Below, piece after piece: positions 7,672-30,963 of a DNA stretch of 64,000 nucleotides (position 1 is the first letter of the stretch; every line of letters begins with the position of its first letter). The stretch comes from Candidatus Komeilibacteria bacterium. GTDB lineage: Bacteria; Patescibacteriota; Patescibacteriia; UBA1558; UBA10009. The notes beneath the pieces were generated by a model, which did not search any database, was not told the DNA's origin, and was given only the letters and a program-made list of their open reading frames with translations. The stretch is from assembly GCA_030688315.1 (NCBI GenBank), contig JAUYIT010000008.1, forward strand, positions 21,240 to 85,239, read 5' to 3'. A program made the translations under genes and the position numbers.

Positions 7672-7941
7672 TATGTTGGTTAAAAGTTTGAGGAAAAGTT
7701 TTTGATAACTTGGTGGAGAAAAATAAATTTACTGTTTAAAACTATTCCACTTGTACACAGTAAATTAAACCGCGCCAAAGTTATCCCAAAGTTATTAAAA
7801 AATAATCACAGGAGTTAAGTAAATTAATCAACAAGAACCAACTGGAAATCGCCAATTGGTTATTGCCTAAAATTTACTTTTCAACTTATCAACTCCCCTT
7901 ATTACTATTATCATCAATTATATATTTAAAAAGAATTGAAT
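7672..7941. promoter_or_regulatory. candidate oriC region (dnaA-dnaN intergenic, AT-rich)
   Basis: Conserved location. Degenerate DnaA-box-like 9-mers (gttatccca; repeated tgtacacag) but no perfect TTATCCACA. Confidence 0.25.
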
Positions 7942-17721: not shown

Positions 17722-17776
17722 AAATTATACCATAGTATAATTTTTTGTCAAACAAATTATACCATAGTATAATTTT
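17722..17776. promoter_or_regulatory. two perfect 23-bp direct repeats (aaattataccatagtataatttt), each near-palindromic, spaced 32 bp, in a divergent promoter region
   Basis: Copies at 17722..17744 and 17754..17776. Inner motif TTATAC-CATAG-TATAA. Confidence 0.5.
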
Positions 17777-17854: not shown

Positions 17855-18865
17855 ATGAAATTAAACGAACAAAACTATCTTAAATCAATTGAGCTATTGG
17901 GCGAGCAAATTAAGCAGTCATATTTTGAAGCTGGGCGGCTAAAATTACCAGCTTCTTATCGTCAGATTAATAAAATCGCCGTGTTTGGCATGGGTGGATC
18001 GCAACTAGGCACGGATTTGATCAATAACTTATTTAGCCAGGAATTAAAGGTCCCGATTATTCAAATCAGAGATTATAGCGTGCCCGGGTTTGTTGACGCT
18101 AATACTTTGGTTTTATTACTTAGTTATTCCGGCACCACCGAAGAAGTTTTGGCCGTCAGTCAAAAATTATCGAGCCGTAATAAGGTTGTGGTTATCACGG
18201 TTGGCGGAAAGTTATCTGAAGTTTCCAAGAAAAATCATTGGCCCATGTATCAGTTTGATCCGCGGTACAATCCTTCGGGTCAGCCGCGGATGGGCACCGG
18301 TTATTTGGTCGGTTCGGTCATGGCGATTTTGAAAAAACTGAATTTGCTGGCCATTAATGATTCAACCGCCAACCAAATGATTGTTGGTGCTAAGCTGACT
18401 TCAGCTGTAAAACTTCAGGCCAAAAAATTGGCGAAATCCTTGAAAGGCAAAACACCGATCATCATTGGCGCTGAGCATTTATTTGGCAACGCCCACATTA
18501 TGACCAATCAGATTAATGAATCGTCAAAACAAAGGTGCTATTACTTTGCTTTGCCCGAGCTCAACCATCATTTATTGGAAGGATTGTCTTTCCCCTCCAC
18601 CACCAAAAAGAATCTGGTTTTTGTTTTTCTGAATTCTAAAAATTATTTTGCCCGCAACAAAAAACGCTTTGCTTTAACCGAACAGGTGGTTAACAAGCAG
18701 GGCATTGGTTCGGTTAAAATTGATGTGGGCGGCAATAAAGTTCAGGAAGCTATTAAATTATTGGGTCTGGGGGGCTTGCTTTCCTACGAACTGACCAAGA
18801 TCAATAAGGTTGAACCGGATCAGATTCCCTGGGTAAATTATTTTAAAGAACAGTTAGGAAAATAA
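17855..18865 (+). CDS. SIS-domain bifunctional phosphoglucose/phosphomannose isomerase (archaeal type)
   Basis: Translation with a tandem SIS architecture (..VFGMGGSQLGTDL..). Confidence 0.6.
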   Translation: MKLNEQNYLKSIELLGEQIKQSYFEAGRLKLPASYRQINKIAVFGMGGSQLGTDLINNLFSQELKVPIIQIRDYSVPGFVDANTLVLLLSYSGTTEEVLAVSQKLSSRNKVVVITVGGKLSEVSKKNHWPMYQFDPRYNPSGQPRMGTGYLVGSVMAILKKLNLLAINDSTANQMIVGAKLTSAVKLQAKKLAKSLKGKTPIIIGAEHLFGNAHIMTNQINESSKQRCYYFALPELNHHLLEGLSFPSTTKKNLVFVFLNSKNYFARNKKRFALTEQVVNKQGIGSVKIDVGGNKVQEAIKLLGLGGLLSYELTKINKVEPDQIPWVNYFKEQLGK

Positions 18866-18870
18866 AACGC

Positions 18871-20484
18871 ATGCATAGCAAATTTTGGCTGTTTTTCCGC
18901 CACGTTAACAGCAAATACTATTTTGATTATCTAGCTGTTTTTTTTATTGCCTTAATTTTATTCGGCTGGCTGCAAGCCGGTCCGACTTTGGCCGAGCCCG
19001 ATTCATTTTATCACGCCAAGATGGCGGTAATTATGTCGGAAGGCAAAGTTTTACAGCAATTCCCTTGGCTGCAAGAAACCAATTTGCCGGAACAGTATGT
19101 TAACCACCATTTTTTATACCACGCTCTACTGGTTCCTTTTGTTAACATGTTTGATCCTTTGGTGGGCGTTAAAGTGGCCACGGTTTTATTCGCTTCTCTG
19201 TTGGTTTTATCAATTTATTGGCTGTTTAAAAAGTTTGAAGTTAAATACCCCTTGGTTTTTGTTTTAATATTATTAACTATTTCGCCCTGGCTGTTTAGGG
19301 CTAGTTTGGTTAAAGCGCCGGCCATCAGTTTTATTTTTCTGCTCTGCGCGTTTTACTGTCTGGCGCATCAGCATTGGCTGCGTTTGTTTTTGCTTTCGTT
19401 TGCCGCGGTTTGGCTGTACGGTTCCTGGCCGGTTATTTTGGTTATGACCATTACTTATTTGATTGTTTATTGGCTGTTGGAAAAATATCGGCAGGAAGAA
19501 TCAATTTGGCATAAACTAAAAAATATTTTCCAATTAAATAAAAAAGTTCCCTGGCGCGGGTTGCTGTACGTGGTCGGTGGTTTAACGGCCGGCCTGGTTA
19601 TTAATCCCTATTTCCCGCAGAATTTAAAATTTTATTATCAGCAAATTATTGATATTGCCTTATTTAACTATCAGCATGTGATCAGCGTGGGTTCCGAGTG
19701 GTATCCTTATGATATTTATAAATTGATTGCCGACGCGCCTTTGATTATGTCTTTGCTGGTGGTTAGCGTGCTGTTGTTTATTTTAACCGTAAAAAAACAA
19801 TCCATTTATTCCTGGACCTGGGGTTTGCTAGCTGTGGCCTTTTTTATTTTAACCTTAAAATCACGGCGGCAGGTGGAATTTTTTACGCCCTTAACCGTAA
19901 TTTTTGCCGGCTTTACCTTTAACGATTATTTTAGAAAGCTTTCCCGCCTGCATTTGCAATTGTTGTTAAACGTGGCCTGGCAGGCAATTTTTGGTCTGGC
20001 TTTGATTTTAGTCGGACTAATTTTTATTTTTAAAATACCCGGCGATTTAAACAGAGCCAAATCCTATTTGGATAACGGTAAACCTTTAACTTATTATCAA
20101 CAAGCGTCCGCCTGGCTTACAGCCAACTCGCCCAAACAGGCCGTGGTTTTTAACGCCAACTGGTCCGATTTTCCCGCCCTGTTTTACCACAACAGTCATA
20201 ATTATTATCTGACCGGTTTGGATCCGACTTTTATGTATCAGCTGAACCCGGTTAAATACCAACAATACGTAGACATCACCTTGGGCAAGGTACAGCAAAA
20301 TTTAAAAAAAATCATCCAAGATGATTTTAAGGCCGATTATGTTTTATTTGACCATGAGCACTGGCTGTTGGAAAAACAATTAAAATACAGCGGCGATTTT
20401 ATCAAGGTTTATGAAGACAGCGAAGCTAAAATTTATCAGGTTAGGTCTGCGCCGGTGTTATTGCCGAGTTCATCAGGCGATTGA
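18871..20484 (+). CDS. large polytopic membrane protein, possible GT-C-fold glycosyltransferase
   Basis: 537 aa, more than 10 predicted TM helices, with an early periplasmic loop bearing ..AEPDSFYHAKMA.. No confident family. Confidence 0.3.
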   Translation: MHSKFWLFFRHVNSKYYFDYLAVFFIALILFGWLQAGPTLAEPDSFYHAKMAVIMSEGKVLQQFPWLQETNLPEQYVNHHFLYHALLVPFVNMFDPLVGVKVATVLFASLLVLSIYWLFKKFEVKYPLVFVLILLTISPWLFRASLVKAPAISFIFLLCAFYCLAHQHWLRLFLLSFAAVWLYGSWPVILVMTITYLIVYWLLEKYRQEESIWHKLKNIFQLNKKVPWRGLLYVVGGLTAGLVINPYFPQNLKFYYQQIIDIALFNYQHVISVGSEWYPYDIYKLIADAPLIMSLLVVSVLLFILTVKKQSIYSWTWGLLAVAFFILTLKSRRQVEFFTPLTVIFAGFTFNDYFRKLSRLHLQLLLNVAWQAIFGLALILVGLIFIFKIPGDLNRAKSYLDNGKPLTYYQQASAWLTANSPKQAVVFNANWSDFPALFYHNSHNYYLTGLDPTFMYQLNPVKYQQYVDITLGKVQQNLKKIIQDDFKADYVLFDHEHWLLEKQLKYSGDFIKVYEDSEAKIYQVRSAPVLLPSSSGD

Positions 20485-20495
20485 GGTTAATGAGT

Positions 20496-22496
20496 TCAGT
20501 TGACAAAAATTTCACCCAAGTCAATTATCGGCCAAAGCATTTCTTCTTTACTAATCTTCATGACGGCTGACCTTTGCCCGTCTAAAACTAAGGAGCCGCC
20601 GTAATCAAGGACCTGTAATTCCGCCCGGTAATTGCCCAAAGAAAGCTTATTTGGCAGTAAAAACCAGTAGTTGCTTTTAATAACCTGACCCGGTTGCCAT
20701 TCGGAAGTCGGGTACAGGCCGTAAGCCAGGGGATATAGTTTTTGGTGGACAACCTGATCTTGGTTGTTTTTTAAACTAAGTTTAAATTGATAATTTTTGT
20801 TTATTTTTTGATCAGCTTTAAAATACAAGGCCAGCGGAAAAATTCTTAAATTTTCGGCCGTCTGCTCGGTTTTAGGGAGCGGCGTGGAGCCCAGAAAAGT
20901 CAGGAGCTGGTTCAGTTTTAGGTTTTGGCGGTTGGTGATTTTGGTTGTAGGCGCGTCAATTTGATAAAGCTCAAGGCCATCCCCCGCTTCTTTTTTAAAC
21001 AGCGCCAAAGTATCAATGATTTTGATTGCCTTAAAGCCGCGTTCGGCAATAATGTTTCTTAAATTGTCGTCGCCTTGGTCGTAGTATTTACTCCACATTT
21101 TATTATTCGGGAACTGAATTTGATATTCCAGCAAATCGCTAAAATCAACGGCCAGCGCCTCAGTCTCTTGAGGTAGGCGGTAATTAATGTGGGATAATTG
21201 CGTTTTGCCGATAAAAGCGTAGTGCAGGGAATAAATTTTTTCCCGGCCCGACAGATTGGTCAGCAATTCATAGGTGGCGGCCACGGCCTCCTGATCAGCC
21301 ACCGTTTCAATCAGCTCATGCCTGATTTGCCTAGCTTGCGCGTCATAAGTCGGGTTAGCTAGTTTGCCGATAAAGCCCGGCAACGGCCCCAGGGCCAGCA
21401 AACCGTAAACAGCGCTGACAATTAAAATCAGCTTAACTATGGCCCAATTATTTTTTAAGTAAAGCGCCAGTTTGGTTTTGACTTGTCCGGTTTGCAGATG
21501 GTCCAAAGAAAAAATCAGGGCAATAAAAAGCGGGGGCAATAATAAGCTCACATAATGAAGCTTGACTACAATCACGGCGTTGTTGGTTTGGCTTAAAATG
21601 AGCTGGGCAAAAATTGGCAGAGCCAAAAGCAGATATTTTGGCTTAAGCAGGCAAAAAAAGCCCGCCGGCAAAAATAGCAACGGGGCCAGCAACAAATTGC
21701 CCGGCGTTAGCAGGCGTTGTAAAACCAGCCAGGGTTTGGCAAAAAAATTTACGGCCAGTTGCAAAAAACTGTTGCCCAGCCAGCCGTAGTAAGTTAAAAA
21801 TTTAAATAGGCCGCTGGTGCTAAAATGAGCAACGATTTTTACGGCAATAATAAACCAGGTCGCGGCCAGCGCCATGGGCCAGATAATCCACTTTAGAGAT
21901 TTTTTGTCCATGATTGCTAGCGGACTAAACATGAACACGGCTAACGACACGTCTTCACGGATCAATAACGAGATAACAATAAAAAGCAAAAACCAGGGAA
22001 ATTTATCGCGCAGGTAAAAATAGAAAGCCCAGAAAATAGAAAAAATGGCAAAGGGCAAAAAATGGAACTCAAAAAGATTAATGTTTTGGACAAACGGATT
22101 TAACAGCCAGAGCAGGGCAATCAGCAAAGGCCAGCCACGCGTTAACCGGGTTTTAGCGATTAAAAACAAGGGCCAGGCCGATAAAGCCAAAATTGCTGTT
22201 TGTAAAATCAACAAAGTAATCGGATGCTGAAAAAAGTAATAGATGGGCAGCAGGCCAAGTAACAGTAGTTCCAAATGGTCGCCCAGATAGTATTGTTGAT
22301 GAAAAGTAAATTCAAACCAGCGGCCGTGGGCGGAATTAAACAGCACTTGATTGTAAATGGCCAGATCCAAACCGTTGTAGCCGAACTGCCAATATTTCCA
22401 AACGCAGATTGCTGAAAATACTAAAAAATATAAACCGATGGCCAGCCACAGGCATAAGCCGGGTTTATTGTTGATGAAATGGCGGATTTTTTTCAT
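20496..22496 (-). CDS. DUF2079 (COG3463) polytopic membrane protein, GT-C-like
   Basis: GLDLAIYNQVLFN..LGDHLE motifs resemble DUF2079. ATG at 22496 (MKKIRHF) avoids overlap with the pilin-like gene. Confidence 0.45.
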   Translation of the reverse strand: MKKIRHFINNKPGLCLWLAIGLYFLVFSAICVWKYWQFGYNGLDLAIYNQVLFNSAHGRWFEFTFHQQYYLGDHLELLLLGLLPIYYFFQHPITLLILQTAILALSAWPLFLIAKTRLTRGWPLLIALLWLLNPFVQNINLFEFHFLPFAIFSIFWAFYFYLRDKFPWFLLFIVISLLIREDVSLAVFMFSPLAIMDKKSLKWIIWPMALAATWFIIAVKIVAHFSTSGLFKFLTYYGWLGNSFLQLAVNFFAKPWLVLQRLLTPGNLLLAPLLFLPAGFFCLLKPKYLLLALPIFAQLILSQTNNAVIVVKLHYVSLLLPPLFIALIFSLDHLQTGQVKTKLALYLKNNWAIVKLILIVSAVYGLLALGPLPGFIGKLANPTYDAQARQIRHELIETVADQEAVAATYELLTNLSGREKIYSLHYAFIGKTQLSHINYRLPQETEALAVDFSDLLEYQIQFPNNKMWSKYYDQGDDNLRNIIAERGFKAIKIIDTLALFKKEAGDGLELYQIDAPTTKITNRQNLKLNQLLTFLGSTPLPKTEQTAENLRIFPLALYFKADQKINKNYQFKLSLKNNQDQVVHQKLYPLAYGLYPTSEWQPGQVIKSNYWFLLPNKLSLGNYRAELQVLDYGGSLVLDGQRSAVMKISKEEMLWPIIDLGEIFVN

Positions 22497-22522: not shown

Positions 22523-23119
22523 TTAATTTCTGGCGCACTCGTTTTTAATCGGCCCGCTTTTGCATTCATAGCTGTTGCCGTACCATTCCTGGCATTGTTC
22601 AGTATTATCACATTCTTGGTTAAAACTGCACCAACCCTCTTGGCACAACCAGCCCGAACCAAAATCCCCTAAACAGTCGACGTTGCGATTGCATTTGCCG
22701 CTGGGGTTGCCACCGGCGTTAAAATCGTAATAACCGCCGCTGTTGGTACTGCGCTGGGCTATGTTATCCACGTAAACAACTATTACCATGGAAGCGGCAA
22801 TAATGGTTACGCCGATGATGGAATTTTTAAGGCGTTTTTTGGCGTCTTCTATTTTGTCTTCTTCCCCGCCCGAACTCATCCACTGCCAGCCCGCGTAAAT
22901 AATGCTGATTAAAAAGAACAGACCCACCAAGGTCAGGGCGTAATTAATAAAATTTATAATAATGCGCTGGGGGGAGGCCTCGGTAGTGGCCAAACCGGCT
23001 TCGTTATTAGCGCGGTTAACACGATCCAAAATTCCGCCATCCTGCGCCAGAACTTTGGTCCAAGCCAACAGTAAAAGCGAGTTAACCGCCAGTCCCAAAT
23101 TTTTTATGAATTTAATCAT
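22523..23119 (-). CDS. VirB2/TrbC-like two-helix secreted protein paralog 1 (Cys-rich C-tail, 8 Cys)
   Basis: Signal peptide, then a helix, loop YAGWQWMSSGGEEDKIEDAKKRL, a second helix, and a Cys-rich tail. Confidence 0.6.
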   Translation of the reverse strand: MIKFIKNLGLAVNSLLLLAWTKVLAQDGGILDRVNRANNEAGLATTEASPQRIIINFINYALTLVGLFFLISIIYAGWQWMSSGGEEDKIEDAKKRLKNSIIGVTIIAASMVIVVYVDNIAQRSTNSGGYYDFNAGGNPSGKCNRNVDCLGDFGSGWLCQEGWCSFNQECDNTEQCQEWYGNSYECKSGPIKNECARN

Positions 23120-23121
23120 AT

Positions 23122-23500
23122 TTATAGATAACGATTATCCAAACCCACCTGCCAAAAATTCAGCACGAACAAAATCAAACTGTAGGCAATGGCAATAATA
23201 AAAAAGCCGATGACGGAGTTTTTAAGCCGGGTCTGGGCTTTTTCAATGGTGTCTTCGTTGCCGCCGGCCGTAATCCACTGAAAGCCGGAATAGATGATCA
23301 TAATTAAAAAGAAGATGCCCACAAAGGTTAAAACGTAGGCAATAATACCCAGCACCACCGTGATTTTGGTACCGGTCGCTGTGGTATCAAAACCCGACTG
23401 ATCGGCTAAACTCTTAAAACGATCCAAGGGCGTGGTTAAAGCCAAAACCGAAGACAAGGGGGTTAACAAAAGTAGATAAATGGCAATTAAAATTTTCATA
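23122..23500 (-). CDS. VirB2/TrbC-like paralog 2
   Basis: Loop YSGFQWITAGGNEDTIEKAQTRL. ATG at 23500 lies 1 nt after the stop of paralog 3. Confidence 0.6.
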
Positions 23501-23501
23501 C

Positions 23502-24335
23502 TTAAGGTTGACACTCGTTATTAACGCACCTGCCAGGGGCGCAGTCACCGTCATCTTGGCATTCCTTGCACTCGCCGTCTATGCAATATTTTACGTTGGG
23601 ATTACAGGAGGTTCGGCAGGCGCTATCGGCTAGGCAGATGCCCGTTCTTGGTCCGGTAAATTCCCAAAAGCATAGATTGGCAATACAAAGGCCTCTATCG
23701 TTAAAGTCCGGGCAGGGCGTATTTTCATAAAAACAGCAGGTTGCTTGGTTGGGGCAGGAGGCGTCTTCCGCGTCAATAATTATTCCGTCCTGACCATCGC
23801 AAACCCTCGGATTATTAACGCAGGCAAATCGGCCGTTGGCTCCGTCATTATTTAATTCGTCACAGCTGATTTGATATGGCTCCTCGCCCGTGGGCGGTGT
23901 TTCTATGCCGGTGCCAGGATCTTTTAGGAAGCGCTGGTCAAAATAGCTGTACAGGGCGTAGGTTAAAATAAAAGCCAGCAGGGTAATGGCCACGCCAATG
24001 ACGCCGTTTAAAATCCTTTTTTTTGCTTGTTCCACCTTTTCCTCGTTACCGCCGGCCGTCATCCACTGGAAACCGGAGTAAATGACCAGCCCCAAAAAAA
24101 ATAAACCGGTAAAGCTGATCACGGTCATAATGATCCGGCCCAGCAAAGTGTCAAAATAACTTTCATCGGACTGCAAATCCACGTTATAAGTGCCCTCGCG
24201 GCCGGCTTTATTTAAAAAATCCTGGTAGGTTTGAAAAGTACCGGGATTTTGGGCCAAAACAACATTGGCCACTAGCGCTACCGCGCTGACCGTTAAAATT
24301 AGCAGGCAGATTTTGATCAGGTTTTTTTTAGTCAT
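23502..24335 (-). CDS. VirB2/TrbC-like paralog 3 (long Cys-rich C-terminal ectodomain, 18 Cys)
   Basis: Loop YSGFQWMTAGGNEEKVEQAKKRI. The C-terminal 130 aa carry multiple CxxxC/CC motifs. Confidence 0.6.
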   Translation of the reverse strand: MTKKNLIKICLLILTVSAVALVANVVLAQNPGTFQTYQDFLNKAGREGTYNVDLQSDESYFDTLLGRIIMTVISFTGLFFLGLVIYSGFQWMTAGGNEEKVEQAKKRILNGVIGVAITLLAFILTYALYSYFDQRFLKDPGTGIETPPTGEEPYQISCDELNNDGANGRFACVNNPRVCDGQDGIIIDAEDASCPNQATCCFYENTPCPDFNDRGLCIANLCFWEFTGPRTGICLADSACRTSCNPNVKYCIDGECKECQDDGDCAPGRCVNNECQP

Positions 24336-24346
24336 TTAATTTGATT

Positions 24347-24955
24347 TTATTCACAGCTGTTGCGCCCGCCGATATTTTCGTTGCAGGTTTTGCCTTGCGG
24401 ACAGGCGGGACCGCGTTCTCTAAAACAAGTGCACCATTTGGCTTGGCCGTCTGCCGTTCTAAACGTTTCGCACATCGGCATATTAGCATCAAGGCAATCA
24501 GCGTTGCTTTGGCATTCATAATTAGCGTTATTTGCCGGCGCGTCAGCGCTTCCTCCTTGGGTAAAGATAAAGTTAAAAACGAGATTGGTAATAATGTAGG
24601 CAAAAAAGATCAGGCCAAAGCCCAGCGAGGCGTTTAAAATGCGTTTTTTGGATTCTTCCACTTTTTCCTCGTTACCACCGGCCGTCATCCACTGAAAGCC
24701 GGAATAGATAATTAAGGCCAAAAATAGTGCCCCCAAAAAGCCCAAAAAAATAGCGATCAACTGGCCAAAAGTGGTATCCAAAAACGTTTCGCTGGCCACA
24801 TCGTCGGTGTTATAAAAACCCGTTGAGGCAATGATGTTGATGGTACCGCCGTTATCTCCGCCAAAACCAATGGATTGGGCCATTAAAACGGCCGGGGAAA
24901 ATAAAACTACTACGGCGATAATCACGGTCAAAGTTTTGTAAAAAGTTTTAGTCAT
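24347..24955 (-). CDS. VirB2/TrbC-like paralog 4 (Cys-rich C-tail)
   Basis: Loop YSGFQWMTAGGNEEKVEESKKRI. Confidence 0.6.
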   Translation of the reverse strand: MTKTFYKTLTVIIAVVVLFSPAVLMAQSIGFGGDNGGTINIIASTGFYNTDDVASETFLDTTFGQLIAIFLGFLGALFLALIIYSGFQWMTAGGNEEKVEESKKRILNASLGFGLIFFAYIITNLVFNFIFTQGGSADAPANNANYECQSNADCLDANMPMCETFRTADGQAKWCTCFRERGPACPQGKTCNENIGGRNSCE

Positions 24956-24961
24956 ACTAAA

Positions 24962-25002
24962 CGGGATTGCTTCGCCCGCCGAATCGGCGGGATCGCAATG
25001 AC
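24962..25002. repeat. GC-rich palindromic element, second copy of the 9060..9178 family, between pilin-like paralogs 5 and 4
   Basis: cgggattgcttcg-cccgccgaatcggcggg-atcgcaatgac. It shares a 13-mer and a 9-mer with the dnaN-downstream element. Confidence 0.5.
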
Positions 25003-25006
25003 AGGA

Positions 25007-25387
25007 TTAGGCGGCGCCCAAGGTTTTACTGATAAACCAAGTGATAAAGAAGGCGGCCACAGTTACGGCCAAACCAACGATAGCGTTCATAATTCTGGTT
25101 TTGGCTCTGGTTACTTTTTCCTCTTCGCCGCCGGCCGTCATCCACTGGATGCCGGAAATAACAATGTAGATAAAAAAGATCGCGCCCACAAAACTTAAAA
25201 CAATGCTGATCAAAGTGCCGATGGTTTGGGGGATAGTATCAGAAGTACCGGCGCCGGCAGGGTAACCCGCTCCGTTAATGCCGGCGGCATCGTCAATTAA
25301 ACCAGAGTTGACCTGGGCCAAGGCAGTCAATGGCAAAATTAGGAAGTTAAGGTAAAGACCAATTAATATTTTTTTGACGTTTTTCAT
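25007..25387 (-). CDS. VirB2/TrbC-like paralog 5
   Basis: Loop ISGIQWMTAGGEEEKVTRAKTRI. Confidence 0.6.
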   Translation of the reverse strand: MKNVKKILIGLYLNFLILPLTALAQVNSGLIDDAAGINGAGYPAGAGTSDTIPQTIGTLISIVLSFVGAIFFIYIVISGIQWMTAGGEEEKVTRAKTRIMNAIVGLAVTVAAFFITWFISKTLGAA

Positions 25388-25402
25388 TTTATTGTTTGTT
25401 AA

Positions 25403-25981
25403 TTATGCATTCATTGGGCAGCATTTTTTGTTATTCGGACAGGTTTCATCGGTCGGCTCAATTCCTTCACCGCAGGCGTCTTCACATGAGTACCCCTCAT
25501 CAAGTGGACAGGTATAAGAGCCAGGGTCAACTTCATTTACACTCGGAGTAATCCGCATTCTGTCTACAATAAAGCTGGTTAAGGCATAGGACATCATTAC
25601 AATGCCCAAGCCGATGGCGGCGCGGATAATGCGTTCGCGGGCATGGGTAACCTTTTCCTCGTTGCCGCCGGCCGTCATCCACTGGATGCCGGAGTAAACC
25701 ACTAGGCCGAAAAATACCACGCCAAACACGGACAAAACCATGCCAATAACCTGACCGACTTTTTGGGCCAAGGTTTCCGCGCTAACAACAGTATTGGATC
25801 CGTAACCTGAAGGACCACCGCCCGCTTGCTCCAAAATCCATTTCTGACAATCTTGTAAGCTTTCGTTTGGGTCGCAGCTTTGCAAATTGGCAGCGGCATC
25901 CTGGGCTAAAGCCAAGCCGGGTAAAAATAAACTGGCAGCTAAAGTAAGGGATAATAAATAAAGTTTTATAAATTTTATCAT
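25403..25981 (-). CDS. VirB2/TrbC-like paralog 6 (Cys-containing N- and C-ectodomains)
   Basis: Loop YSGIQWMTAGGNEEKVTHARERI. Confidence 0.6.
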   Translation of the reverse strand: MIKFIKLYLLSLTLAASLFLPGLALAQDAAANLQSCDPNESLQDCQKWILEQAGGGPSGYGSNTVVSAETLAQKVGQVIGMVLSVFGVVFFGLVVYSGIQWMTAGGNEEKVTHARERIIRAAIGLGIVMMSYALTSFIVDRMRITPSVNEVDPGSYTCPLDEGYSCEDACGEGIEPTDETCPNNKKCCPMNA

Positions 25982-25987
25982 AAAAGT

Positions 25988-26428
25988 TTATTGGGGCAGG
26001 CCGGTGCCGATGCCCATGATTCTAAAGACCAAAAAGTTAATAAAAATATAGGACAAAAGAATAATAATAATGCCGATGGCGGCGCTTTCAATGTGTTTGA
26101 CCGCGTCATCAACCATTTGCTGGTTGCCCTTGGCCATCATCCAGGTAAAGCCGGAATAAATAACGATGACTAAAAAAATAACGCCCAAAAAAGCCAAAAA
26201 TAAATTGATGAACCGGCCGACATATTCGAAAACGGTTGGCGCCGGTTTATCGTCACTAAAAATATTTGAGTCCTTGGCGGTATCATCCAGGCGTTTAATG
26301 ATATCACCCACATTGTTGGCCCCCAAATCCTGCTGGGCGTAAATTAAGCCGTTGGGAATAACGGCTGTAAAGCCAAAAAAAGCCAGCAGGCAGGAGAGGG
26401 AAATAATTTTTGCAGTTAATATTTTCAT
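25988..26428 (-). CDS. VirB2/TrbC-like paralog 7 (divergent loop)
   Basis: Loop YSGFTWMMAKGNQQMVDDAVKHI. Start at MKILTAK. Confidence 0.5.
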   Translation of the reverse strand: MKILTAKIISLSCLLAFFGFTAVIPNGLIYAQQDLGANNVGDIIKRLDDTAKDSNIFSDDKPAPTVFEYVGRFINLFLAFLGVIFLVIVIYSGFTWMMAKGNQQMVDDAVKHIESAAIGIIIILLSYIFINFLVFRIMGIGTGLPQ

Positions 26429-26429
26429 C

Positions 26430-26912
26430 TTAAGGATTTTGGCTTTGCGAAGGAGGGTTGGCAATGCCAGCCAGTTGAAAAACCACAAAGTTAACCACCA
26501 GATAGGCGAAAATTATTACCAGCAAGCCCAAAGTGGCCTGGCGCAGGGTGCGGATCGCTTTATCGGCCCGCTCCTTGTTACCGCCGGCCGTCAGCCAAAC
26601 AATGCCGCCGTAAACCGTTAGGAGAAAAAAGACCAGGCCAACAATTTGCAGGCCAATAACCACAAATTCGCCGATAATGGCCGCGGTCGTAGGCGGGCTA
26701 TCTTGGGCATTTTCAGAAACGGCCCCGCTGTTTCGCGCGCCTTTATCAAGAGTTTTTTGGGCGCACTCAATGGCCGAGTCGGTGGGCAGGCATTCCAGGT
26801 CGTTCTGGGCTTGCGCCATTAAAAAATTAAATGGCAGAAAGAGAGCGAATAATAAAAATAGGGCGCAAATGCCCTTGATTATAAATTGTCCATGGTAACG
26901 GGCAATGGTCAT
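26430..26912 (-). CDS. VirB2/TrbC-like paralog 8
   Basis: Loop YGGIVWLTAGGNKERADKAIRTL. The N-terminal ectodomain has 2 Cys. Confidence 0.55.
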   Translation of the reverse strand: MTIARYHGQFIIKGICALFLLFALFLPFNFLMAQAQNDLECLPTDSAIECAQKTLDKGARNSGAVSENAQDSPPTTAAIIGEFVVIGLQIVGLVFFLLTVYGGIVWLTAGGNKERADKAIRTLRQATLGLLVIIFAYLVVNFVVFQLAGIANPPSQSQNP

Positions 26913-27131
26913 AAGCGACGTAGAGTGAGAGAAATAATAAAGCGAAGCTTTATTATTTCCGAACCGAGGAGCTTATATGTACTCATATATGGACTCGGAT
27001 GAGCAGGGCTTAAAATAGCCGTTTAATTATTTGAAGATACAGTTTAGACCTCAACCCCGAAGTAGACGCTCGCGTTTTGCTCGCGACACTTCGGGATTAC
27101 AATTTAAATTGTATCAATGAGTCAGTTATCC

Positions 27132-27566
27132 TTAATTAGCTACAGTCGCTTGTTGAAGGTTTTCGAGTACAAATCTGGCAATGGCGTAAGCCGATAAAAT
27201 CACAATCAAGCCAACGATGCCCGCTGAAATCAGCTTTTTGGCTTCACCGACTTTTTCCTCTTCACCGCCGGCTGTCATCCATTTAAAGCCGCCCAACAGG
27301 ATGATCACCACCGCGATTACGCCCAAAAATCCCAACAACACGTTTAAAATATCGGCAATGGTTTCCTTTAACGGTTTGGTGCCCAAATTGGTATCTGTCA
27401 AAGCATTGATGCCGAATTCATCGCCTTCGGGGTTAAAATTATCTCCTGCTACTCCTCCCTCATCATCTTGCGCCCAAACTTGTGTCCCAACCATGGCAAT
27501 GGGCATGGCTAAAGCCAACAACAGGCCAAAAACCACTAAGTTCTTTTTTAATAAGAATTTTTTCAT
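27132..27566 (-). CDS. VirB2/TrbC-like paralog 9 (acidic N-ectodomain)
   Basis: Loop LGGFKWMTAGGEEEKVGEAKKLI. Confidence 0.55.
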   Translation of the reverse strand: MKKFLLKKNLVVFGLLLALAMPIAMVGTQVWAQDDEGGVAGDNFNPEGDEFGINALTDTNLGTKPLKETIADILNVLLGFLGVIAVVIILLGGFKWMTAGGEEEKVGEAKKLISAGIVGLIVILSAYAIARFVLENLQQATVAN

Positions 27567-27691
27567 ACTTCACCCCCTTTCATTTACTGACGCCGCTTGG
27601 CTGCGACCCCAATAAACTACTTGTTTAATAATAACTCAATTTATTATACAATAATTTTATTTATTCCGCTATAAGTTAGCTGGGTATATCT

Positions 27692-28135
27692 TTATGAAAA
27701 GTTTAATGTTTCAAAGATCGCTCGCAGAATGGCGTAGCTGGAAAAAATAATCACCAGCCCGAGCGCGGCCCAAATCAGAGTATCTTTGCCCTTTTTGACT
27801 TTATCGGCCGCGCCGCCGGCCGTCATCCATTGAAGCCCGCCAATAACGAACATTAATAAAGCAATAACTCCGGTTACGCCCATAAAGCCAAAAATCAGGC
27901 GGGAGTACAGATCAGCCGGTGTTTTAATGTTTTCTCCTAAGGGGTTATCCAATTTAATGACGCCCGAGTTAGCGGCGCCTGCGTCCTCGCAGGTTTTATC
28001 GCAGGCCGCCTTGGCCACTTCGTCGGCCATAGTGCATTTCGATGCTTTGCAGGCCGCTACTGTTTCCGCCATAACTGGTCCGGCAAATAAAAATAGAGCA
28101 AGTAATAAAAAAGCAATTAGTCCTCTTTTATTCAT
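27692..28135 (-). CDS. VirB2/TrbC-like paralog 10 (Cys-containing N-ectodomain)
   Basis: Loop IGGLQWMTAGGAADKVKKGKDTL. Confidence 0.55.
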   Translation of the reverse strand: MNKRGLIAFLLLALFLFAGPVMAETVAACKASKCTMADEVAKAACDKTCEDAGAANSGVIKLDNPLGENIKTPADLYSRLIFGFMGVTGVIALLMFVIGGLQWMTAGGAADKVKKGKDTLIWAALGLVIIFSSYAILRAIFETLNFS

Positions 28136-28168
28136 ATCGGTAATTTTAAATTAAACTTTTAAAAGTTA

Positions 28169-28609
28169 TTATTTGGGGCAAACTTCGTTCCAGGCCTGGC
28201 CGGAAAAAATTCTGCCAACGCCTTTTTCGGTTGGCATAACGGAATTTTGGGGATCGGCCTGATTAAAAGTGAGTAACACCACCACCAAGTTAACAATCAG
28301 CCAGCTGGCTAAAATAATCATAATGCCGACGACGGTATGCACTAAAGCGTCTTTGGTTTTTTTAACTTTTTCACTGTCGCCCATGCTGGTTAGCCAGCCA
28401 AAGCCGTGCCAGACAAACAGTAATAAGGAAAGGCCGCCCACAATGCCCAAAATCCACCTAAAAACATTTAAGCCCAGTTGAACAAAATCGCACAGGCCGC
28501 AATTACCGTCTTTTGTGCATTCAGGCAGAAGATCTTGAGCATAAACCATGGCCGGGCTAAATATTGTTAGGCAGAGCAGTGCTATAATCAAGAACCTTTT
28601 GTTGTTCAT
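28169..28609 (-). CDS. VirB2/TrbC-like paralog 11 (most divergent)
   Basis: Loop WHGFGWLTSMGDSEKVKKTKDAL. Confidence 0.5.
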   Translation of the reverse strand: MNNKRFLIIALLCLTIFSPAMVYAQDLLPECTKDGNCGLCDFVQLGLNVFRWILGIVGGLSLLLFVWHGFGWLTSMGDSEKVKKTKDALVHTVVGIMIILASWLIVNLVVVLLTFNQADPQNSVMPTEKGVGRIFSGQAWNEVCPK

Positions 28610-28621
28610 TTGATTTGAGAA

Positions 28622-29995
28622 TTAGAGGGTTTGGTTGACCTTGTCAGCGGCGTTTTGTAACAGTTTAAGCTGGTTCGGCGTGGTAGCAAAATTTTTAATT
28701 AAATCTTTAAAAATCTCTTCCATTTTAAGTTGATCCTTGCCCTGATACCAGTTTTGAGCCGTTAAAGTTTGATTGGCAAAGACGCCGATTTCCGGGTCGT
28801 CTTTTTGGCCGTTGATTAAGGCCCTTAAAGCGGAGGGCTTTTTGGCTTGAGCTAGGTATTTAACCACTTGTTCTTGGCTGGCCGCAAAGTTAATAAAGCC
28901 CCAGGCCGCGTCAACATTGGCGGTTTTATGGCTGACCGTTTCCGCCCAGTAGTTGGTGTAATTAACGGCTTTGGTGGAGTTTATAATTTGCGGCAGAGGG
29001 GCCACGCCCAGATTGATTTTAGGAGCCCGGCCTTTAATTTCCCTTAATTGATAGGTATAGCCGAGGGTCATGCCTACTTTGCCGGACACAAAGGCGTCTA
29101 AAGAATTGGCCTGTTTGGCGTTCCAGGAATAAACCTGTTTTAAGGGGTCGGCAAAATCGGTGTAAAAATTTAAGGCGGCCAAACCGGGGTAGTAGCTGTC
29201 TTTGCCCGCGGCTTTATTGGCAAAAGCCACTCGTCCGTTTTTATCGGTCATTATCGTGCCGTTTTGGATCATTAATAAAGATACGATATCCACGGCATTA
29301 TTGATGTTATCGGCCGTACCCAGGGTAATGCCCGATTGGATTGGGTTGTTGTTAAGGTCAATTTGGCTGATTTTAGCGGCCGCTTCAGCCACTTCGTCCC
29401 AGTTGGTGGGGGCAGTGGCAATGCCGGCCTTATCCAGCAAATCGCGGTTGTATAGTAAAACCAAGGAATCCAAACTGTAGGGCAAGCCGTAAATTTTTCC
29501 GTTGCTGACCACGTCTTCATAAACCTGATCCACAAATTTGTTTTTTATGTCGGCGGCGCTAAAAATCGGCACGCCCCTAACCACGGTAGTCCGCTCCTCT
29601 TGCCCCAAGGTTTTGGTTATCTGCTCAAACGCCAGTTGGACTTGCGCGGGCTGGGGTGTAATAAAGCTTTGGTATTTGGTCAGCCAGCTGGCCGGTAAAC
29701 TGTAAATATCCGGACCGCGGTCGGCGGCCCAGGCCTCCAACAGTTTTTGCTCATATTCGCTAAAGCGGAAGCGGGTGTATTTGATTTTAATATTAGGATG
29801 CAGGGCTTGAAAATCCTTGATTAATGGCGCTAAAAAGGCCGGTTCGTCCCAGACGCCCCAGTAATTAAGCTGAATGGTTTTGGTTAAAGCGGCCGGCGCT
29901 TGTTTGGTCGGAAAAAGTTTGCAGGAAAAACCGCCGGTGGCCAGAATCACGGCCACAAGCAGGAGTAAAAGTTTTTTTTGAAAATGTTTAGTCAT
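28622..29995 (-). CDS. extracellular solute-binding protein (ABC-type SBP family 1-like) lipoprotein, orphan
   Basis: Signal/lipobox ..ATGGFSC and SBP-like translation. No permease or ATPase adjacent. It ends 12 nt before pilin-like paralog 11. Confidence 0.55.
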   Translation of the reverse strand: MTKHFQKKLLLLLVAVILATGGFSCKLFPTKQAPAALTKTIQLNYWGVWDEPAFLAPLIKDFQALHPNIKIKYTRFRFSEYEQKLLEAWAADRGPDIYSLPASWLTKYQSFITPQPAQVQLAFEQITKTLGQEERTTVVRGVPIFSAADIKNKFVDQVYEDVVSNGKIYGLPYSLDSLVLLYNRDLLDKAGIATAPTNWDEVAEAAAKISQIDLNNNPIQSGITLGTADNINNAVDIVSLLMIQNGTIMTDKNGRVAFANKAAGKDSYYPGLAALNFYTDFADPLKQVYSWNAKQANSLDAFVSGKVGMTLGYTYQLREIKGRAPKINLGVAPLPQIINSTKAVNYTNYWAETVSHKTANVDAAWGFINFAASQEQVVKYLAQAKKPSALRALINGQKDDPEIGVFANQTLTAQNWYQGKDQLKMEEIFKDLIKNFATTPNQLKLLQNAADKVNQTL

Positions 29996-30024: not shown

Positions 30025-30903
30025 TTAAATTTTGAGGTTTTTAAGGTATTTTTTAAATTCCCCGTTAAGTTTGGGATGATCCAATGCTAGTTCCACATTG
30101 GCCTTAAGCCAACCCAAAATGGTGCCGGCATCATAAAGCTTGCCCTCTATTTTTTTGGCGTAAAATGGCCTTTTTTTGAGTAAAACGCTGATGGCGTCGG
30201 CCAGCCAAAGTTCACCGCCCTGGCCGGGCTTGGTTTTTTTTAAAATGGTAAAAATTTCCGGAGTTAAAATGTAACCGCCTACCAGTGCCAAATTGGATTT
30301 GGCTTTAGCTGGGCCGGGTTTTTCGGTAAAATCCTTGACTTTATAAACATTTTTTTCCACCCGTTGGCCGTCAATAATGCCATAGCGCTTAGTGTCTTCT
30401 TTACTTACTTCAATAACCGACAAAACCGGATTTTGGTATTTTTCGTAAACTTCAATCATCTGCTTAATCCAGCTTTTGCCGCCCTTGGTTTGCGGGATAA
30501 AAAATTCGTCGCCCCAAAATACGGCAAAGGGCTCATTGCCAATCAGTTGCTCGGCGTTTAAGACCGGGGTGCCATTGCCATAGCCGCCTTTTTGCCGGAT
30601 GTAAACAAAGTTAGCTAGGCGCGGGATTGACCGCAATTCCTTTAATAATTGGGGATTGGTGGATTTTTCCACCCATTTTTCCAGTTCCGGACTGCGGTCA
30701 AAGTGATCTTCCACGGCGCGTTTGTTGCCGCTGGTAACAAAAATTATTTCGGTAATACCTGCTTCGGCGCAGGCCTCCACAATGTATTGGATGGTGGGTT
30801 TATCAACCACCGGCAGCATTTCTTTGGGCTGGGCTTTGGTGGCTGGCAAAAAGCGGGTGCCAAACCCGGCCACGGGGATTATTGCTTTGCGGATTTTAGA
30901 CAT
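30025..30903 (-). CDS. galU: UTP--glucose-1-phosphate uridylyltransferase
   Basis: N-terminal AIIPVAGFGTRFLPATKAQPKEMLPVVDKP is canonical GalU. Confidence 0.85.
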   Translation of the reverse strand: MSKIRKAIIPVAGFGTRFLPATKAQPKEMLPVVDKPTIQYIVEACAEAGITEIIFVTSGNKRAVEDHFDRSPELEKWVEKSTNPQLLKELRSIPRLANFVYIRQKGGYGNGTPVLNAEQLIGNEPFAVFWGDEFFIPQTKGGKSWIKQMIEVYEKYQNPVLSVIEVSKEDTKRYGIIDGQRVEKNVYKVKDFTEKPGPAKAKSNLALVGGYILTPEIFTILKKTKPGQGGELWLADAISVLLKKRPFYAKKIEGKLYDAGTILGWLKANVELALDHPKLNGEFKKYLKNLKI

Positions 30904-30963
30904 ATGTTAGTAATATTATACAATCATTGTTTAACTTTCGCAACCATAAAAGGCCTTTTGTTG

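What the first reader, a model, noticed from the sequence alone, without database searches (positions are those of the whole stretch)
18871..22496. Two large GT-C-like polytopic membrane proteins flank the 3' end of the pilin-like array; galU and an orphan SBP lipoprotein sit at its 5' end
On the same strand and in order are galU (30025..30903), an orphan solute-binding lipoprotein (28622..29995), the 11 paralogs, and a DUF2079-type membrane protein (20496..22496). A second 537-aa polytopic membrane protein (18871..20484) converges on this unit. Established knowledge: pilin O-glycosyltransferases of GT-C fold (PilO/TfpO, PglL) are often encoded directly downstream of their pilin substrate, and GalU supplies UDP-glucose. 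Inference: the locus may encode glycosylated surface subunits together with their modifying enzyme(s).
Basis: inference. Interest (0 to 1): 0.5.

Follow-up and report, generated by a model that had tools for sequence, protein, structure and literature searches.

The report
Two glycosyltransferases beside a pilin array
Two large membrane proteins next to a row of eleven conjugation-type pilin genes in an ultrasmall (CPR) bacterium are sugar-transferring enzymes, and this pairing is kept in dozens of related genomes, but what they put sugars on is still unknown.

Summary
The window comes from a Candidatus Komeilibacteria (Patescibacteria/CPR) genome. On the minus strand lie galU, a solute-binding lipoprotein with no transporter nearby, eleven VirB2/TrbC-like "T4SS_pilin" paralogs (not type IV pilins) and a DUF2079 protein. 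A 537-aa membrane protein with no Pfam family ("a1") converges on them.

Both large proteins gave confident AlphaFold models (pLDDT about 92) with a clear GT-C glycosyltransferase fold and an invariant Asp in the first outer loop. Neither looks like a transporter. a1 is closest to STT3/AglB/PglB oligosaccharyltransferases. DUF2079 ends in a beta-sandwich with weak similarity to carbohydrate-binding modules.

In 62 of 63 informative related species genomes, a pilin array sits directly upstream of DUF2079. Between DUF2079 and a1, relatives carry a variable island of GT2 and further GT-C genes, which this window lacks. A second locus type places an a1-family enzyme directly against a pilin array. 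Other arrays have no GT-C neighbour.

So both first-reader refutation criteria fail, but pilin glycosylation is not shown. A surface glycopolymer is at least as likely an acceptor. The PilO/PglL analogy names the wrong enzyme class; TfpW is the better precedent.

The parts
17855..18865 (+). Bifunctional phosphoglucose/phosphomannose isomerase (PGI/PMI). First gene of the plus-strand arm, 5 nt upstream of a1.
   Evidence: Pfam bact-PGI_C E 2e-28. NCBIfam PGI/PMI models E 1e-56, below their curated cut-offs. Adjacent to the a1 family in relatives.
18871..20484 (+). 'a1': a 537-aa GT-C_A-fold glycosyltransferase of a CPR family with no Pfam model. It has STT3/AglB-like architecture: a transmembrane core plus a C-terminal outer alpha/beta domain of about 135 aa. 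Invariant residues include D44, H48, K50, H80, H84, R143, K148, E276-W277-Y278, R333, W431 and D451.
20496..22496 (-). DUF2079 protein, 666 aa. GT-C_A-fold glycosyltransferase with an outer alpha/beta domain and a C-terminal beta-sandwich (about residues 505-666). Last gene of the minus-strand galU-SBP-pilin unit.
22523..28609 (-). Array of 11 VirB2/TrbC-like T4SS_pilin paralogs: 22523-23119, 23122-23514, 23502-24335, 24347-24955, 25007-25387, 25403-25981, 25988-26488, 26430-26912, 27132-27566, 27692-28135, 28169-28609. Each has a Sec signal peptide, a short outer N-terminal segment and a two-helix hairpin with a conserved loop (W-M-T-A-G-G-N-E-E-K-V). Four carry Cys-rich C-terminal extensions.
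   Evidence: PF18895 hits for all 11. NCBIfam Mbov_0395 pilin-like conjugal transfer protein, below its cut-off. Alignment. Arrays of 2-11 such genes are already described in Patescibacteria (PMC12102498).
28622..29995 (-). Solute-binding lipoprotein (MalE/UgpB-like sugar-binding family) with no transporter nearby, 12 nt upstream of the first pilin gene.
   Evidence: SBP_bac_1 E 2.4e-31. In relatives the gap from SBP to the first pilin is typically -4 to +10 nt. The SBP-to-pilin coupling also appears in all the other locus types found.
30025..30903 (-). galU, UTP-glucose-1-phosphate uridylyltransferase. First gene of the minus-strand unit.
   Evidence: TIGR01099, 336.4 bits against a cut-off of 326.8. 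Found upstream of the SBP in 45 related loci.
17745..17773 (+). Promoter-like site (11 of 12 consensus matches) in the divergent intergenic region upstream of PGI/a1. Consensus match only.
   Evidence: The total number of sites was not above the shuffled expectation.
30915..30943 (-). Promoter-like site (10 of 12 consensus matches) upstream of galU. Consensus match only.

Best explanation
Both flagged proteins are active GT-C-fold glycosyltransferases that work on the outer face of the cell membrane. They would take single sugars from polyprenyl-phosphate carriers. Those carriers would be charged inside the cell by GT2 enzymes from UDP-glucose (made by GalU) or from hexose phosphates (interconverted by PGI/PMI).

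The two enzymes are the fixed end-points of a glycosylation locus found in this group of CPR bacteria. One arm runs PGI/PMI, then a1, then a variable set of GT2 and further GT-C genes. This window has none of that variable set. The other arm runs galU, SBP, the VirB2-like array and then DUF2079, and the two arms converge.

**Committed reading.** The pathway builds or decorates a surface glycoconjugate. The most likely acceptor is a membrane-anchored or wall-associated glycopolymer, such as a lipoglycan or a teichoic-acid-like polymer. DUF2079 would use its C-terminal beta-sandwich to hold the glycan. The array proteins would be neighbours in the same surface module and not proven substrates.

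**Shown:** the gene content, the GT-C folds, the invariant outer-loop Asp residues and the conserved gene order.
**Inferred:** the lipid-linked donor, co-transcription and the acceptor.

The confidence of 0.45 is for the whole statement including the glycopolymer acceptor. That both proteins are GT-C glycosyltransferases I put at about 0.95.
For: **Fold and catalytic residues**
- AF2 models have pLDDT 92.7 and 92.5.
- An invariant Asp (D44 in each protein) starts the first outer-loop helix, where GT-C catalytic residues sit.

**Glycan-pathway context**
- In 48 related loci the interval between DUF2079 and a1 holds 1-8 genes, all but two on the a1 strand.
- Contents: GT2 (48 copies); a roughly 550-aa a1 paralog, 'b1' (57 copies; hhalign probability 97% to a1); GT87/MptA-like proteins related to DUF2079 (85%); PMT_2; an LtaS-like sulfatase-domain protein; LPG_synthase_TM; a methyltransferase; PAP2.
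- A natural GT2-b1 fusion occurs at L048:11814-14165.
- One a1 homolog carries a C-terminal glycerophosphodiesterase domain (P0290).
- GT-C enzymes that carry carbohydrate-binding modules act on glycan acceptors (PMC11127046). The DUF2079 beta-sandwich weakly resembles Wzt carbohydrate-binding domains.
- Sugar-nucleotide and hexose-phosphate genes open both arms.
Against: - No GT2 gene and no flippase were found among the ORFs of 150 aa or more that were scanned in this 64-kb window. The donor pathway is therefore unseen here.
- The nearest structural neighbours of a1 modify peptides (STT3/AglB/PglB, DPY19, Pmt4), not glycans.
- DUF2079 is co-oriented with the pilin array and 26 nt downstream of it. 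That junction is broken in only 1 of 63 genomes, whereas the junction between DUF2079 and a1 is a hot spot for insertions.
- a1-family enzymes abut pilin arrays in a second, differently arranged locus type. These last three points favour a protein acceptor.
- The GDPD fusion is a single case.
Confidence: 0.45

Rival explanations
1. The VirB2-like subunits, and possibly the SBP lipoprotein, are the direct acceptors. The STT3/DPY19-like a1 enzyme would attach the first sugar to an outer segment of the protein. DUF2079, and in relatives b1 and the other GT-C enzymes, would extend it. The result would be a glycosylated conjugation-type pilus or surface array.
For: - DUF2079 follows the array on the same strand in 62 of 63 genomes, usually with a gap of 50-120 nt, and insertions avoid this junction.
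- In the SBP-seeded metagenome set, 10 of 28 arrays of three or more pilin genes have an a1-family GT-C, together with a GT2 gene, directly upstream in divergent orientation (locus type B).
- In L100 an array converges on a GT2 gene and an a1 gene with no DUF2079 present.
- a1 ranks closest to peptide-modifying GT-C enzymes and has an AglB-like C-terminal domain.
- The family has an invariant Trp431 followed by Asp in 45 of 47 members ('DWD[ED]FP'), placed after a beta-strand as the OST WWDYG motif is.
- Precedent: the GT-C enzyme TfpW is encoded immediately downstream of pilA and glycosylates that pilin (bioRxiv 10.1101/2020.04.19.049825).
Against: - Arrays exist with no GT-C neighbour: L111, L134 and L156 are followed by an rpoB-like gene, L122 has none, and the essential array of Southlakia epibionticum has no DUF2079 in that genome's annotation tables.
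- NxS/T sequons are not enriched in the outer segments of the pilins (z = -0.4 and +0.7) or in the SBP.
- Ser+Thr content is about 17%, with no mucin-like tracts.
- The motif [AGS]-G-[FYL]-x(0-3)-[ST] before the first helix occurs in only about 20% of subunits.
- One genome keeps DUF2079 without an array (L061).
- The locus types may each stem from a single ancestor, so independent associations are few.
Confidence: 0.3
2. a1 is a true but very divergent oligosaccharyltransferase of the STT3/AglB/PglB kind. It would move a pre-assembled glycan from a polyprenyl-diphosphate carrier onto Asn residues of secreted proteins.
For: - The top 12 Foldseek hits are all OST catalytic subunits, with TM-score about 0.6.
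- Invariant E276 in a late outer loop, R333 and W431-D432 could correspond to the OST TIxE/SVSE Glu, the diphosphate-binding Arg and WWDYG (inference).
Against: - No Pfam STT3 hit in any of 47 family members.
- hhalign of the family against PglB gives 1% probability.
- No conserved DxD-type motif is evident among the invariant residues.
- The window protein has Ser in place of the family's Asp at position 432.
- The partner genes in relatives are small GT2 enzymes typical of monophosphate sugar donors. No initiating phosphoglycosyltransferase or Wzx flippase was seen in the loci examined, apart from L061.
- No sequon enrichment in the neighbouring secreted proteins.
- Only OSTs have isolated C-terminal domains in the PDB, which biases that particular match.
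Confidence: 0.12
3. The adjacency has no functional meaning. The GT-C genes and the pilin array are separate systems kept side by side by inherited gene order near the replication origin in one CPR class.
For: - The same loci also keep RuvC, YebC and PGI in fixed order next to a1, although RuvC and YebC have nothing to do with glycosylation.
- All 80 DUF2079-seeded loci come from one group of related candidate phyla (Komeili-, Kerfeld-, Buchanan-, Uhr- and Falkowbacteria).
- Starting from the SBP instead, only 4 of 32 loci with enough sequence downstream have DUF2079.
Against: - DUF2079 identity falls to 32-35% across these loci while the junction stays intact, yet the neighbouring junction accepts 0.7-9.6 kb of insertions.
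- A remote a1 subfamily, linked to a1 only by iterated jackhmmer search, sits against arrays in a different arrangement.
Confidence: 0.2

Closest known systems
TfpW of Pseudomonas aeruginosa group IV strains (GT-C arabinosyltransferase encoded immediately downstream of pilA)
   Same: A polytopic GT-C enzyme with a catalytic acidic motif in an outer loop and a large C-terminal outer domain. It is encoded directly after the gene for a filament subunit, and it uses lipid-linked sugars made elsewhere.
   Different: TfpW modifies a type IV pilin, has a TPR C-terminal domain and uses D-arabinofuranose. Here the subunits are VirB2-like, the C-terminal domains are AglB-like (a1) or a beta-sandwich (DUF2079), and glycosylation of the subunits is not shown. 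Sequence homology to TfpW was not tested.
STT3/AglB/PglB oligosaccharyltransferases (GT66)
   Same: These are the best overall structural match to a1: the transmembrane core plus a C-terminal alpha/beta domain, and a Trp-Asp motif in an equivalent position. AglB glycosylates archaeal pilins and archaellins (established knowledge).
   Different: No sequence-level membership. No DxD motif is evident. a1 is shorter, at 537 aa. The partner genes suggest monophosphate-linked single sugars and not diphosphate-linked oligosaccharides.
Three-component extracytoplasmic glycosylation systems (GtrA/GtrB/Gtr*, CsbB/GtcA/YfhO, GT136 systems)
   Same: A small GT2 polyprenyl-phosphate sugar synthase works with a GT-C enzyme that decorates a surface polymer outside the membrane. 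Some of these GT-C enzymes carry a carbohydrate-binding module (PMC11127046; PMC5836110, listed). Relatives of this locus pair a1 or b1 with GT2 genes, and one protein fuses the two.
   Different: No GtrA/GtcA-type flippase was identified and no GT2 gene was found among the window ORFs scanned. Relatives hold several different GT-C enzymes in one locus instead of one.
Actinobacterial lipomannan, lipoarabinomannan and arabinogalactan GT-C enzymes (PimE, MptA/B, Emb, AftA-D)
   Same: Several GT-C enzymes, each making a different linkage, are clustered with polyprenyl-phosphate sugar synthases. Relatives' islands give GT87 and MptA_B-family hits, and AftA, AftB, AftD and PimE appear among the structural matches.
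   Different: Different phylum and envelope. No product is known. a1, b1 and DUF2079 are separate sequence families.
PilO/TfpO and PglL O-oligosaccharyltransferases
   Same: A membrane enzyme encoded next to the gene for its pilin substrate.
   Different: They belong to the Wzy_C/O-antigen-ligase family and act on type IV pilins. Neither protein here hits that family, and the structural matches are all GT-C_A enzymes.

Membership tests
GT-C glycosyltransferase superfamily (GT-C_A fold) | Polytopic helical membrane core with a long first outer loop containing helices, matching solved GT-C enzymes | tested here: met
GT-C glycosyltransferase superfamily (GT-C_A fold) | Conserved acidic catalytic residue in the first outer loop | tested here: met
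   D44 is invariant in 47 of 47 a1 sequences (motif P-D-S-F-Y-H-x-K) and D44 is invariant in 48 of 48 DUF2079 sequences (G-L-D-L-A-I-Y-N-Q). Each lies at the start of the helix that follows TM1.
GT-C glycosyltransferase superfamily (GT-C_A fold) | Uses a lipid-phosphate-linked sugar donor | not testable with these tools
   Context only. GT2 genes sit next to a1 or b1 in relatives, and one GT2-b1 fusion exists. None was found among the window ORFs scanned.
Pfam DUF2079 (PF09852) | Score above the family's gathering threshold | tested here: met
   208.5 bits against a cut-off of 28.2, covering model positions 1-441 of 459. All 120 listed homologs carry PF09852.
STT3/AglB/PglB oligosaccharyltransferase (GT66, PF02516), for a1 | Sequence-profile match to the family | tested here: not met
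   No STT3 hit at E<=5 in any of 47 members, and a single AglB_core-like hit at E 0.31. hhalign against PglB gives probability 1.1%. No PDB sequence hit.
STT3/AglB/PglB oligosaccharyltransferase (GT66, PF02516), for a1 | WWDYG sequon-binding motif in the C-terminal domain | tested here: inconclusive
   The family has invariant W431 and Asp432 in 45 of 47 members ('DWD[ED]FP') after a beta-strand that follows the last TM helix. The window protein has Ser432. A permissive, low-confidence hhalign alignment places this motif on the WWDYG of PglB. No residue-level structural superposition was possible.
STT3/AglB/PglB oligosaccharyltransferase (GT66, PF02516), for a1 | DxD/ExD metal-binding motif in the second outer loop | tested here: inconclusive
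   The invariant residues in that region are basic (R143, K148). No invariant acidic pair was seen. The loop assignment is inferred from the model and not from a superposition.
PilO/TfpO/PglL O-oligosaccharyltransferases (Wzy_C) | Wzy_C/O-antigen-ligase domain | tested here: not met
   No such Pfam hit for either protein. All strong structural matches are GT-C_A enzymes.
T4SS_pilin / VirB2-TrbC family (PF18895, PF04956), for the 11 paralogs | Profile match plus a signal peptide and a two-helix hairpin | tested here: met
   All 11 hit PF18895, 10 above the gathering score and one at 25.8 against 26.6. 395 of 451 related subunits show three hydrophobic segments.
Type IV pilins (the substrate class of PilO/PglL/TfpW) | Class III signal peptide with an N-terminal methylation motif and a single hydrophobic N-terminal helix | tested here: not met
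   Pfam returned only T4SS_pilin/TrbC-type hits. The sequences show Sec-type signal peptides ending A-x-A and two membrane helices.
Three-component extracytoplasmic glycosylation system | GT2 polyprenyl-phosphate sugar synthase and a small flippase encoded together with the GT-C enzyme | tested here: inconclusive
   In relatives, GT2 genes lie next to a1 or b1 (48 copies across 48 loci). No GT2 gene was found among the window ORFs scanned. A flippase was not searched for specifically.

The most novel reading that the evidence does not exclude
The VirB2-like subunits of the CPR type IV secretion apparatus are glycoproteins. A gene set of this kind was reported essential in the one Patescibacterium tested (Southlakia epibionticum). 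A previously unnamed, STT3-like 'mini' GT-C family (a1, with its paralog b1) would attach the first sugar to their outer segments and DUF2079 would extend it. This would be the first glycosylated conjugation-type pilin and the first function assigned to DUF2079. The variable GT island would diversify the surface glycan in step with the pilin paralogs.
Probability: 0.25. Interest if true: 0.7.

Novelty: new member of a known kind. Interest (0 to 1): 0.45.

Why it matters
CPR/Patescibacteria live attached to other microbes, and how they build their contact surface is largely unknown. VirB2-like gene arrays are widespread in these bacteria and were reported essential in the one species tested genetically.

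This work gives a concrete structural assignment to two uncharacterised families. One is DUF2079. The other is a family with no Pfam model that has at least 3,500 cluster representatives at 50% identity. The work also shows that both are genomically tied to those arrays in at least 80 species-level genomes.

That turns a vague 'surface locus' into a testable question: are the array proteins, the transporter-less sugar-binding lipoprotein, or a wall polymer the thing being glycosylated? If it is the pilins, it would be a new kind of pilus modification. If it is a polymer, the locus describes a lipoglycan-like pathway in bacteria thought to have very little biosynthetic capacity.

Tried and rejected
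- **Sequence-level assignment of a1.** Pfam, NCBIfam, PDB phmmer and a profile search against PDB all gave nothing.
- **OST membership of a1 by profile comparison with PglB.** Probability 1%. The PglB sequence was recalled from memory and then validated against PDB entries 3aag, 3rce and 5ogl.
- **N-glycosylation signal.** NxS/T is not enriched in pilin outer segments or in the SBP. There are no Ser/Thr-rich tracts.
- **Candidate O-glycosylation motif before the first helix.** Present in only about 20% of subunits.
- **Operon boundaries from promoter and terminator scans.** Counts were not above the shuffled expectation.
- **Literature on DUF2079/PF09852.** No functional paper found. No paper was found linking GT-C enzymes to Patescibacterial pilin arrays.
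- **AlphaFold-database fold search.** The library was unavailable.
- **Distant a1 relatives.** The 1.84-billion-protein search lists only the best 150 hits, so links to named families could not be traced.
- **VirB4 or other T4SS machinery.** None found among the ORFs of 150 aa or more that were scanned in the window.

Full report
**1. What is in the sequence**

The window belongs to a Candidatus Komeilibacteria MAG (Patescibacteria/CPR). The 537-aa protein is 100% identical to NCBI Q8P32_00635, on a 119,830-nt contig.

On the minus strand, in order:
- galU, 30025-30903 (TIGR01099, above its cut-off).
- A solute-binding lipoprotein, 28622-29995 (SBP_bac_1).
- Eleven paralogs, 22523-28609.
- A DUF2079 protein, 20496-22496 (PF09852, E 2.6e-61).

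On the plus strand, a PGI/PMI gene (17855-18865) is followed 5 nt later by the 537-aa membrane protein, here called a1 (18871-20484). Its stop codon lies 11 nt from the stop codon of DUF2079. The last paralog ends 26 nt before the ATG of DUF2079. The SBP ends 12 nt before the first paralog.

All eleven paralogs match Pfam T4SS_pilin (PF18895), and several also match TrbC/VirB2. They are conjugation-type pilins with a Sec signal peptide and a helical hairpin, not type IV pilins. Arrays of 2-11 such genes are already described in Patescibacteria (PMC12102498). The subunit class needed correcting.

**2. What the two membrane proteins are**

*a1.* It has no Pfam, NCBIfam or PDB sequence match, on its own or in any of 47 family members. 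The family is nevertheless large: 3,505 representatives at 50% identity with E<=1e-3. With a 47-sequence alignment, AlphaFold2 gave pLDDT 92.7 and pTM 0.91.

- Foldseek ranks oligosaccharyltransferase catalytic subunits in the first 12 places (E 1e-10 to 1e-8, TM-score about 0.6), then DPY19, then more AglB and PglB entries. PMTs fall far lower.

Each family has an invariant Asp at the start of the first outer-loop helix, D44 in both. That is where GT-C catalytic residues lie.

**3. Is a1 an oligosaccharyltransferase?**

The architecture is OST-like. The family also has an invariant Trp431 followed by Asp in 45 of 47 members ('DWD[ED]FP'), sited after a beta-strand as WWDYG is. The window protein has Ser at position 432.

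The sequence evidence does not support membership. There is no STT3 Pfam hit. hhalign against a validated PglB pair gives 1% probability. No DxD motif is evident. I file a1 as a GT-C enzyme with STT3-like architecture, not as an OST.

**4. Neighbourhood conservation**

Four relatives with 61% down to about 40% a1 identity, each looked up separately, already showed the same frame. A scan of one genome per species with the DUF2079 alignment returned 80 loci, with DUF2079 identity down to 32%. They come from Komeili-, Kerfeld-, Buchanan-, Uhr- and Falkowbacteria and from unnamed Patescibacteria.

Annotation with HMMs built here gave one recurrent order:
- galU, SBP, then 1-12 pilin genes, then DUF2079, all on one strand;
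- converging on a variable interval, a1 and PGI;
- followed by YebC and RuvC.

Key counts:
- Of 63 loci with upstream sequence, 62 have a pilin gene directly upstream of DUF2079. The usual gap is 50-120 nt.
- The gap from SBP to the first pilin is typically -4 to +10 nt, which suggests translational coupling.
- The one exception (L061) has flippase-like and other membrane genes upstream instead.

**5. The variable interval**

In 48 loci, 0.7-9.6 kb separate DUF2079 from a1, and all but two of the ORFs called there lie on the a1 strand. Clustering, Pfam and profile comparison show:
- GT2 enzymes (48 copies).
- A roughly 550-aa family with no Pfam model, 'b1' (57 copies in 39 loci), which is a paralog of a1 (hhalign probability 97%, E 6e-11).
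- GT87/MptA-like proteins related to DUF2079 (85%).
- PMT_2 enzymes.
- An LtaS-like sulfatase-domain membrane protein.
- LPG_synthase_TM, a methyltransferase and, in L001, PAP2.

One protein fuses GT2 to b1 (L048). One a1 homolog carries a glycerophosphodiesterase domain (P0290).

This is the gene content of an extracytoplasmic glycan pathway fed by polyprenyl-phosphate sugars. It resembles three-component systems (PMC11127046) and the actinobacterial lipoglycan enzymes. The window is the minimal form: no interval genes and no GT2 gene among the ORFs scanned in 64 kb.

**6. Independent ascertainment**

Seeding a metagenome scan with the SBP instead of DUF2079 changes the picture. SBP followed by a pilin gene is seen in nearly every locus that extends past the SBP. 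DUF2079 downstream is found in only 4 of 32 loci with room for it. The other locus types are:

| Type | Layout | Examples |
|---|---|---|
| B | SBP, one pilin, a RodZ-like gene, then (in the loci inspected) a GT2 gene, a methyltransferase and an a1-family GT-C, placed divergently against an array of 3-7 pilin genes | 10 arrays; the GT-C is linked to a1 only by jackhmmer |
| C | SBP and one pilin, followed by RodZ-like and RecA-like genes, with no array | L096, L137, L155 |
| D | galU, SBP and nine pilins, followed by an rpoB-like gene, with no GT-C | L111, L134, L156 |
| E | An array converging on a GT2 gene and an a1 gene | L100 |

The essential array of Southlakia epibionticum has no DUF2079 term in the supplementary tables for that genome.

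GT-C enzymes thus recur next to arrays in at least three arrangements, but they are not obligatory partners.

**7. Acceptor**

Evidence for a protein acceptor:
- The unbroken junction between the array and DUF2079.
- Locus types B and E.
- The peptide-modifying structural neighbours of a1.
- The TfpW precedent.

Evidence for a glycopolymer acceptor:
- The content of the variable interval.
- The two fusion proteins.
- The beta-sandwich of DUF2079.
- Arrays that have no GT-C neighbour.
- The lack of sequon or Ser/Thr enrichment.

Because RuvC and YebC are conserved in the same frame, synteny alone is weak evidence. My estimates are:
- about 0.95 that both proteins are GT-C glycosyltransferases;
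- about 0.55 that they are functionally coupled to the array module;
- about 0.45 that the acceptor is a glycopolymer;
- about 0.3 that the acceptor is a pilin or the SBP.

**8. Novelty and verdict**

The array itself is known. DUF2079 and a1 are uncharacterised families now placed in the GT-C superfamily, so they are new members of a known kind. Their conserved coupling to VirB2-like arrays was not found in the literature searched.

Noticed in passing
window 28169-28609 (-) and 28622-29995 (-); also L096, L111, L119, L137, L155: The paralog next to the SBP is a distinct, conserved ortholog with an N-terminal Cys motif (C-G-L-C-D-F here; 'NDF'-type variants elsewhere). The pair SBP plus this one pilin occurs even in CPR loci that have no array, where RodZ-like and RecA-like genes follow. 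The SBP-pilin pair therefore looks like the conserved core to which arrays are joined.
   Followed up: partly
window 22523-23119, 23502-24335, 24347-24955, 25403-25981 (-): Four of the 11 paralogs carry Cys-rich C-terminal outer extensions of about 50-150 aa. Among 395 related subunits with clear topology, 85 have extensions longer than 40 aa, and 83 of the 395 have four or more Cys residues in the C-terminal segment. These could be disulfide-rich tip or adhesin domains.
   Followed up: partly
window 36000-64000: G+C content is lower here (0.33-0.41 against 0.43-0.48). The region is dense in defence and mobile genes: an Eco57I/MmeI-type methylase (52810-55077), a PLD+SNF2 helicase of 1,064 aa (56166-59360), a serine recombinase (59685-61016), a ParB-methylase fusion (48101-49444), a Schlafen/AlbA_2 protein (42787-44214) and DUF4238 (44480-45709). 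It is probably an integrated element or a defence island.
   Followed up: no
window 6298-7671 (dnaA), 7936-9051 (dnaN): The replication origin region lies about 15 kb from the pilin array. This fits the published note that Patescibacterial T4SS genes often sit near dnaA (PMC12102498). No VirB4 was found among the ORFs of 150 aa or more that were scanned in the window.
   Followed up: partly
window 16509-17687 (-): An AAA_14/DUF4143 ATPase gene lies between YebC and PGI, which are adjacent in relatives (L001, L003-L005). It looks like an insertion. A second copy of the same family lies at 37612-38745.
   Followed up: no
L048:11814-14165 (-); protein P0290: Two natural fusions. One is GT2 joined to the a1 paralog b1 (783 aa). 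The other is an a1 homolog with a C-terminal glycerophosphodiesterase (GDPD) domain (786 aa). The second hints at a glycerol-phosphate polymer as substrate, but it is a single case and could be a gene-calling artefact.
   Followed up: partly
window 27217-27615 (+); L115:16471-16866 (-); L122:5490-6047 (-): ORFs that share the peptide '...AVIHLKPPN...'. The window ORF lies antisense to pilin gene 27132-27566, and the peptide mirrors the conserved pilin loop motif (G-G-F-K-W-M-T-A-G-G). They are most likely mechanical ORFs and not genes.
   Followed up: no
L061:1-11827: This is the only DUF2079 locus with full flanks that lacks an upstream pilin array. Flippase-like and other polytopic membrane genes and a RuvB-like gene lie upstream instead. 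DUF2079 can therefore persist without an adjacent array.
   Followed up: partly
window 20485-20495: Only 11 nt separate the stop codons of the convergent a1 and DUF2079 genes, and no terminator-like hairpin lies between them. Transcripts from the two arms would overlap unless they terminate inside the opposing gene.
   Followed up: no
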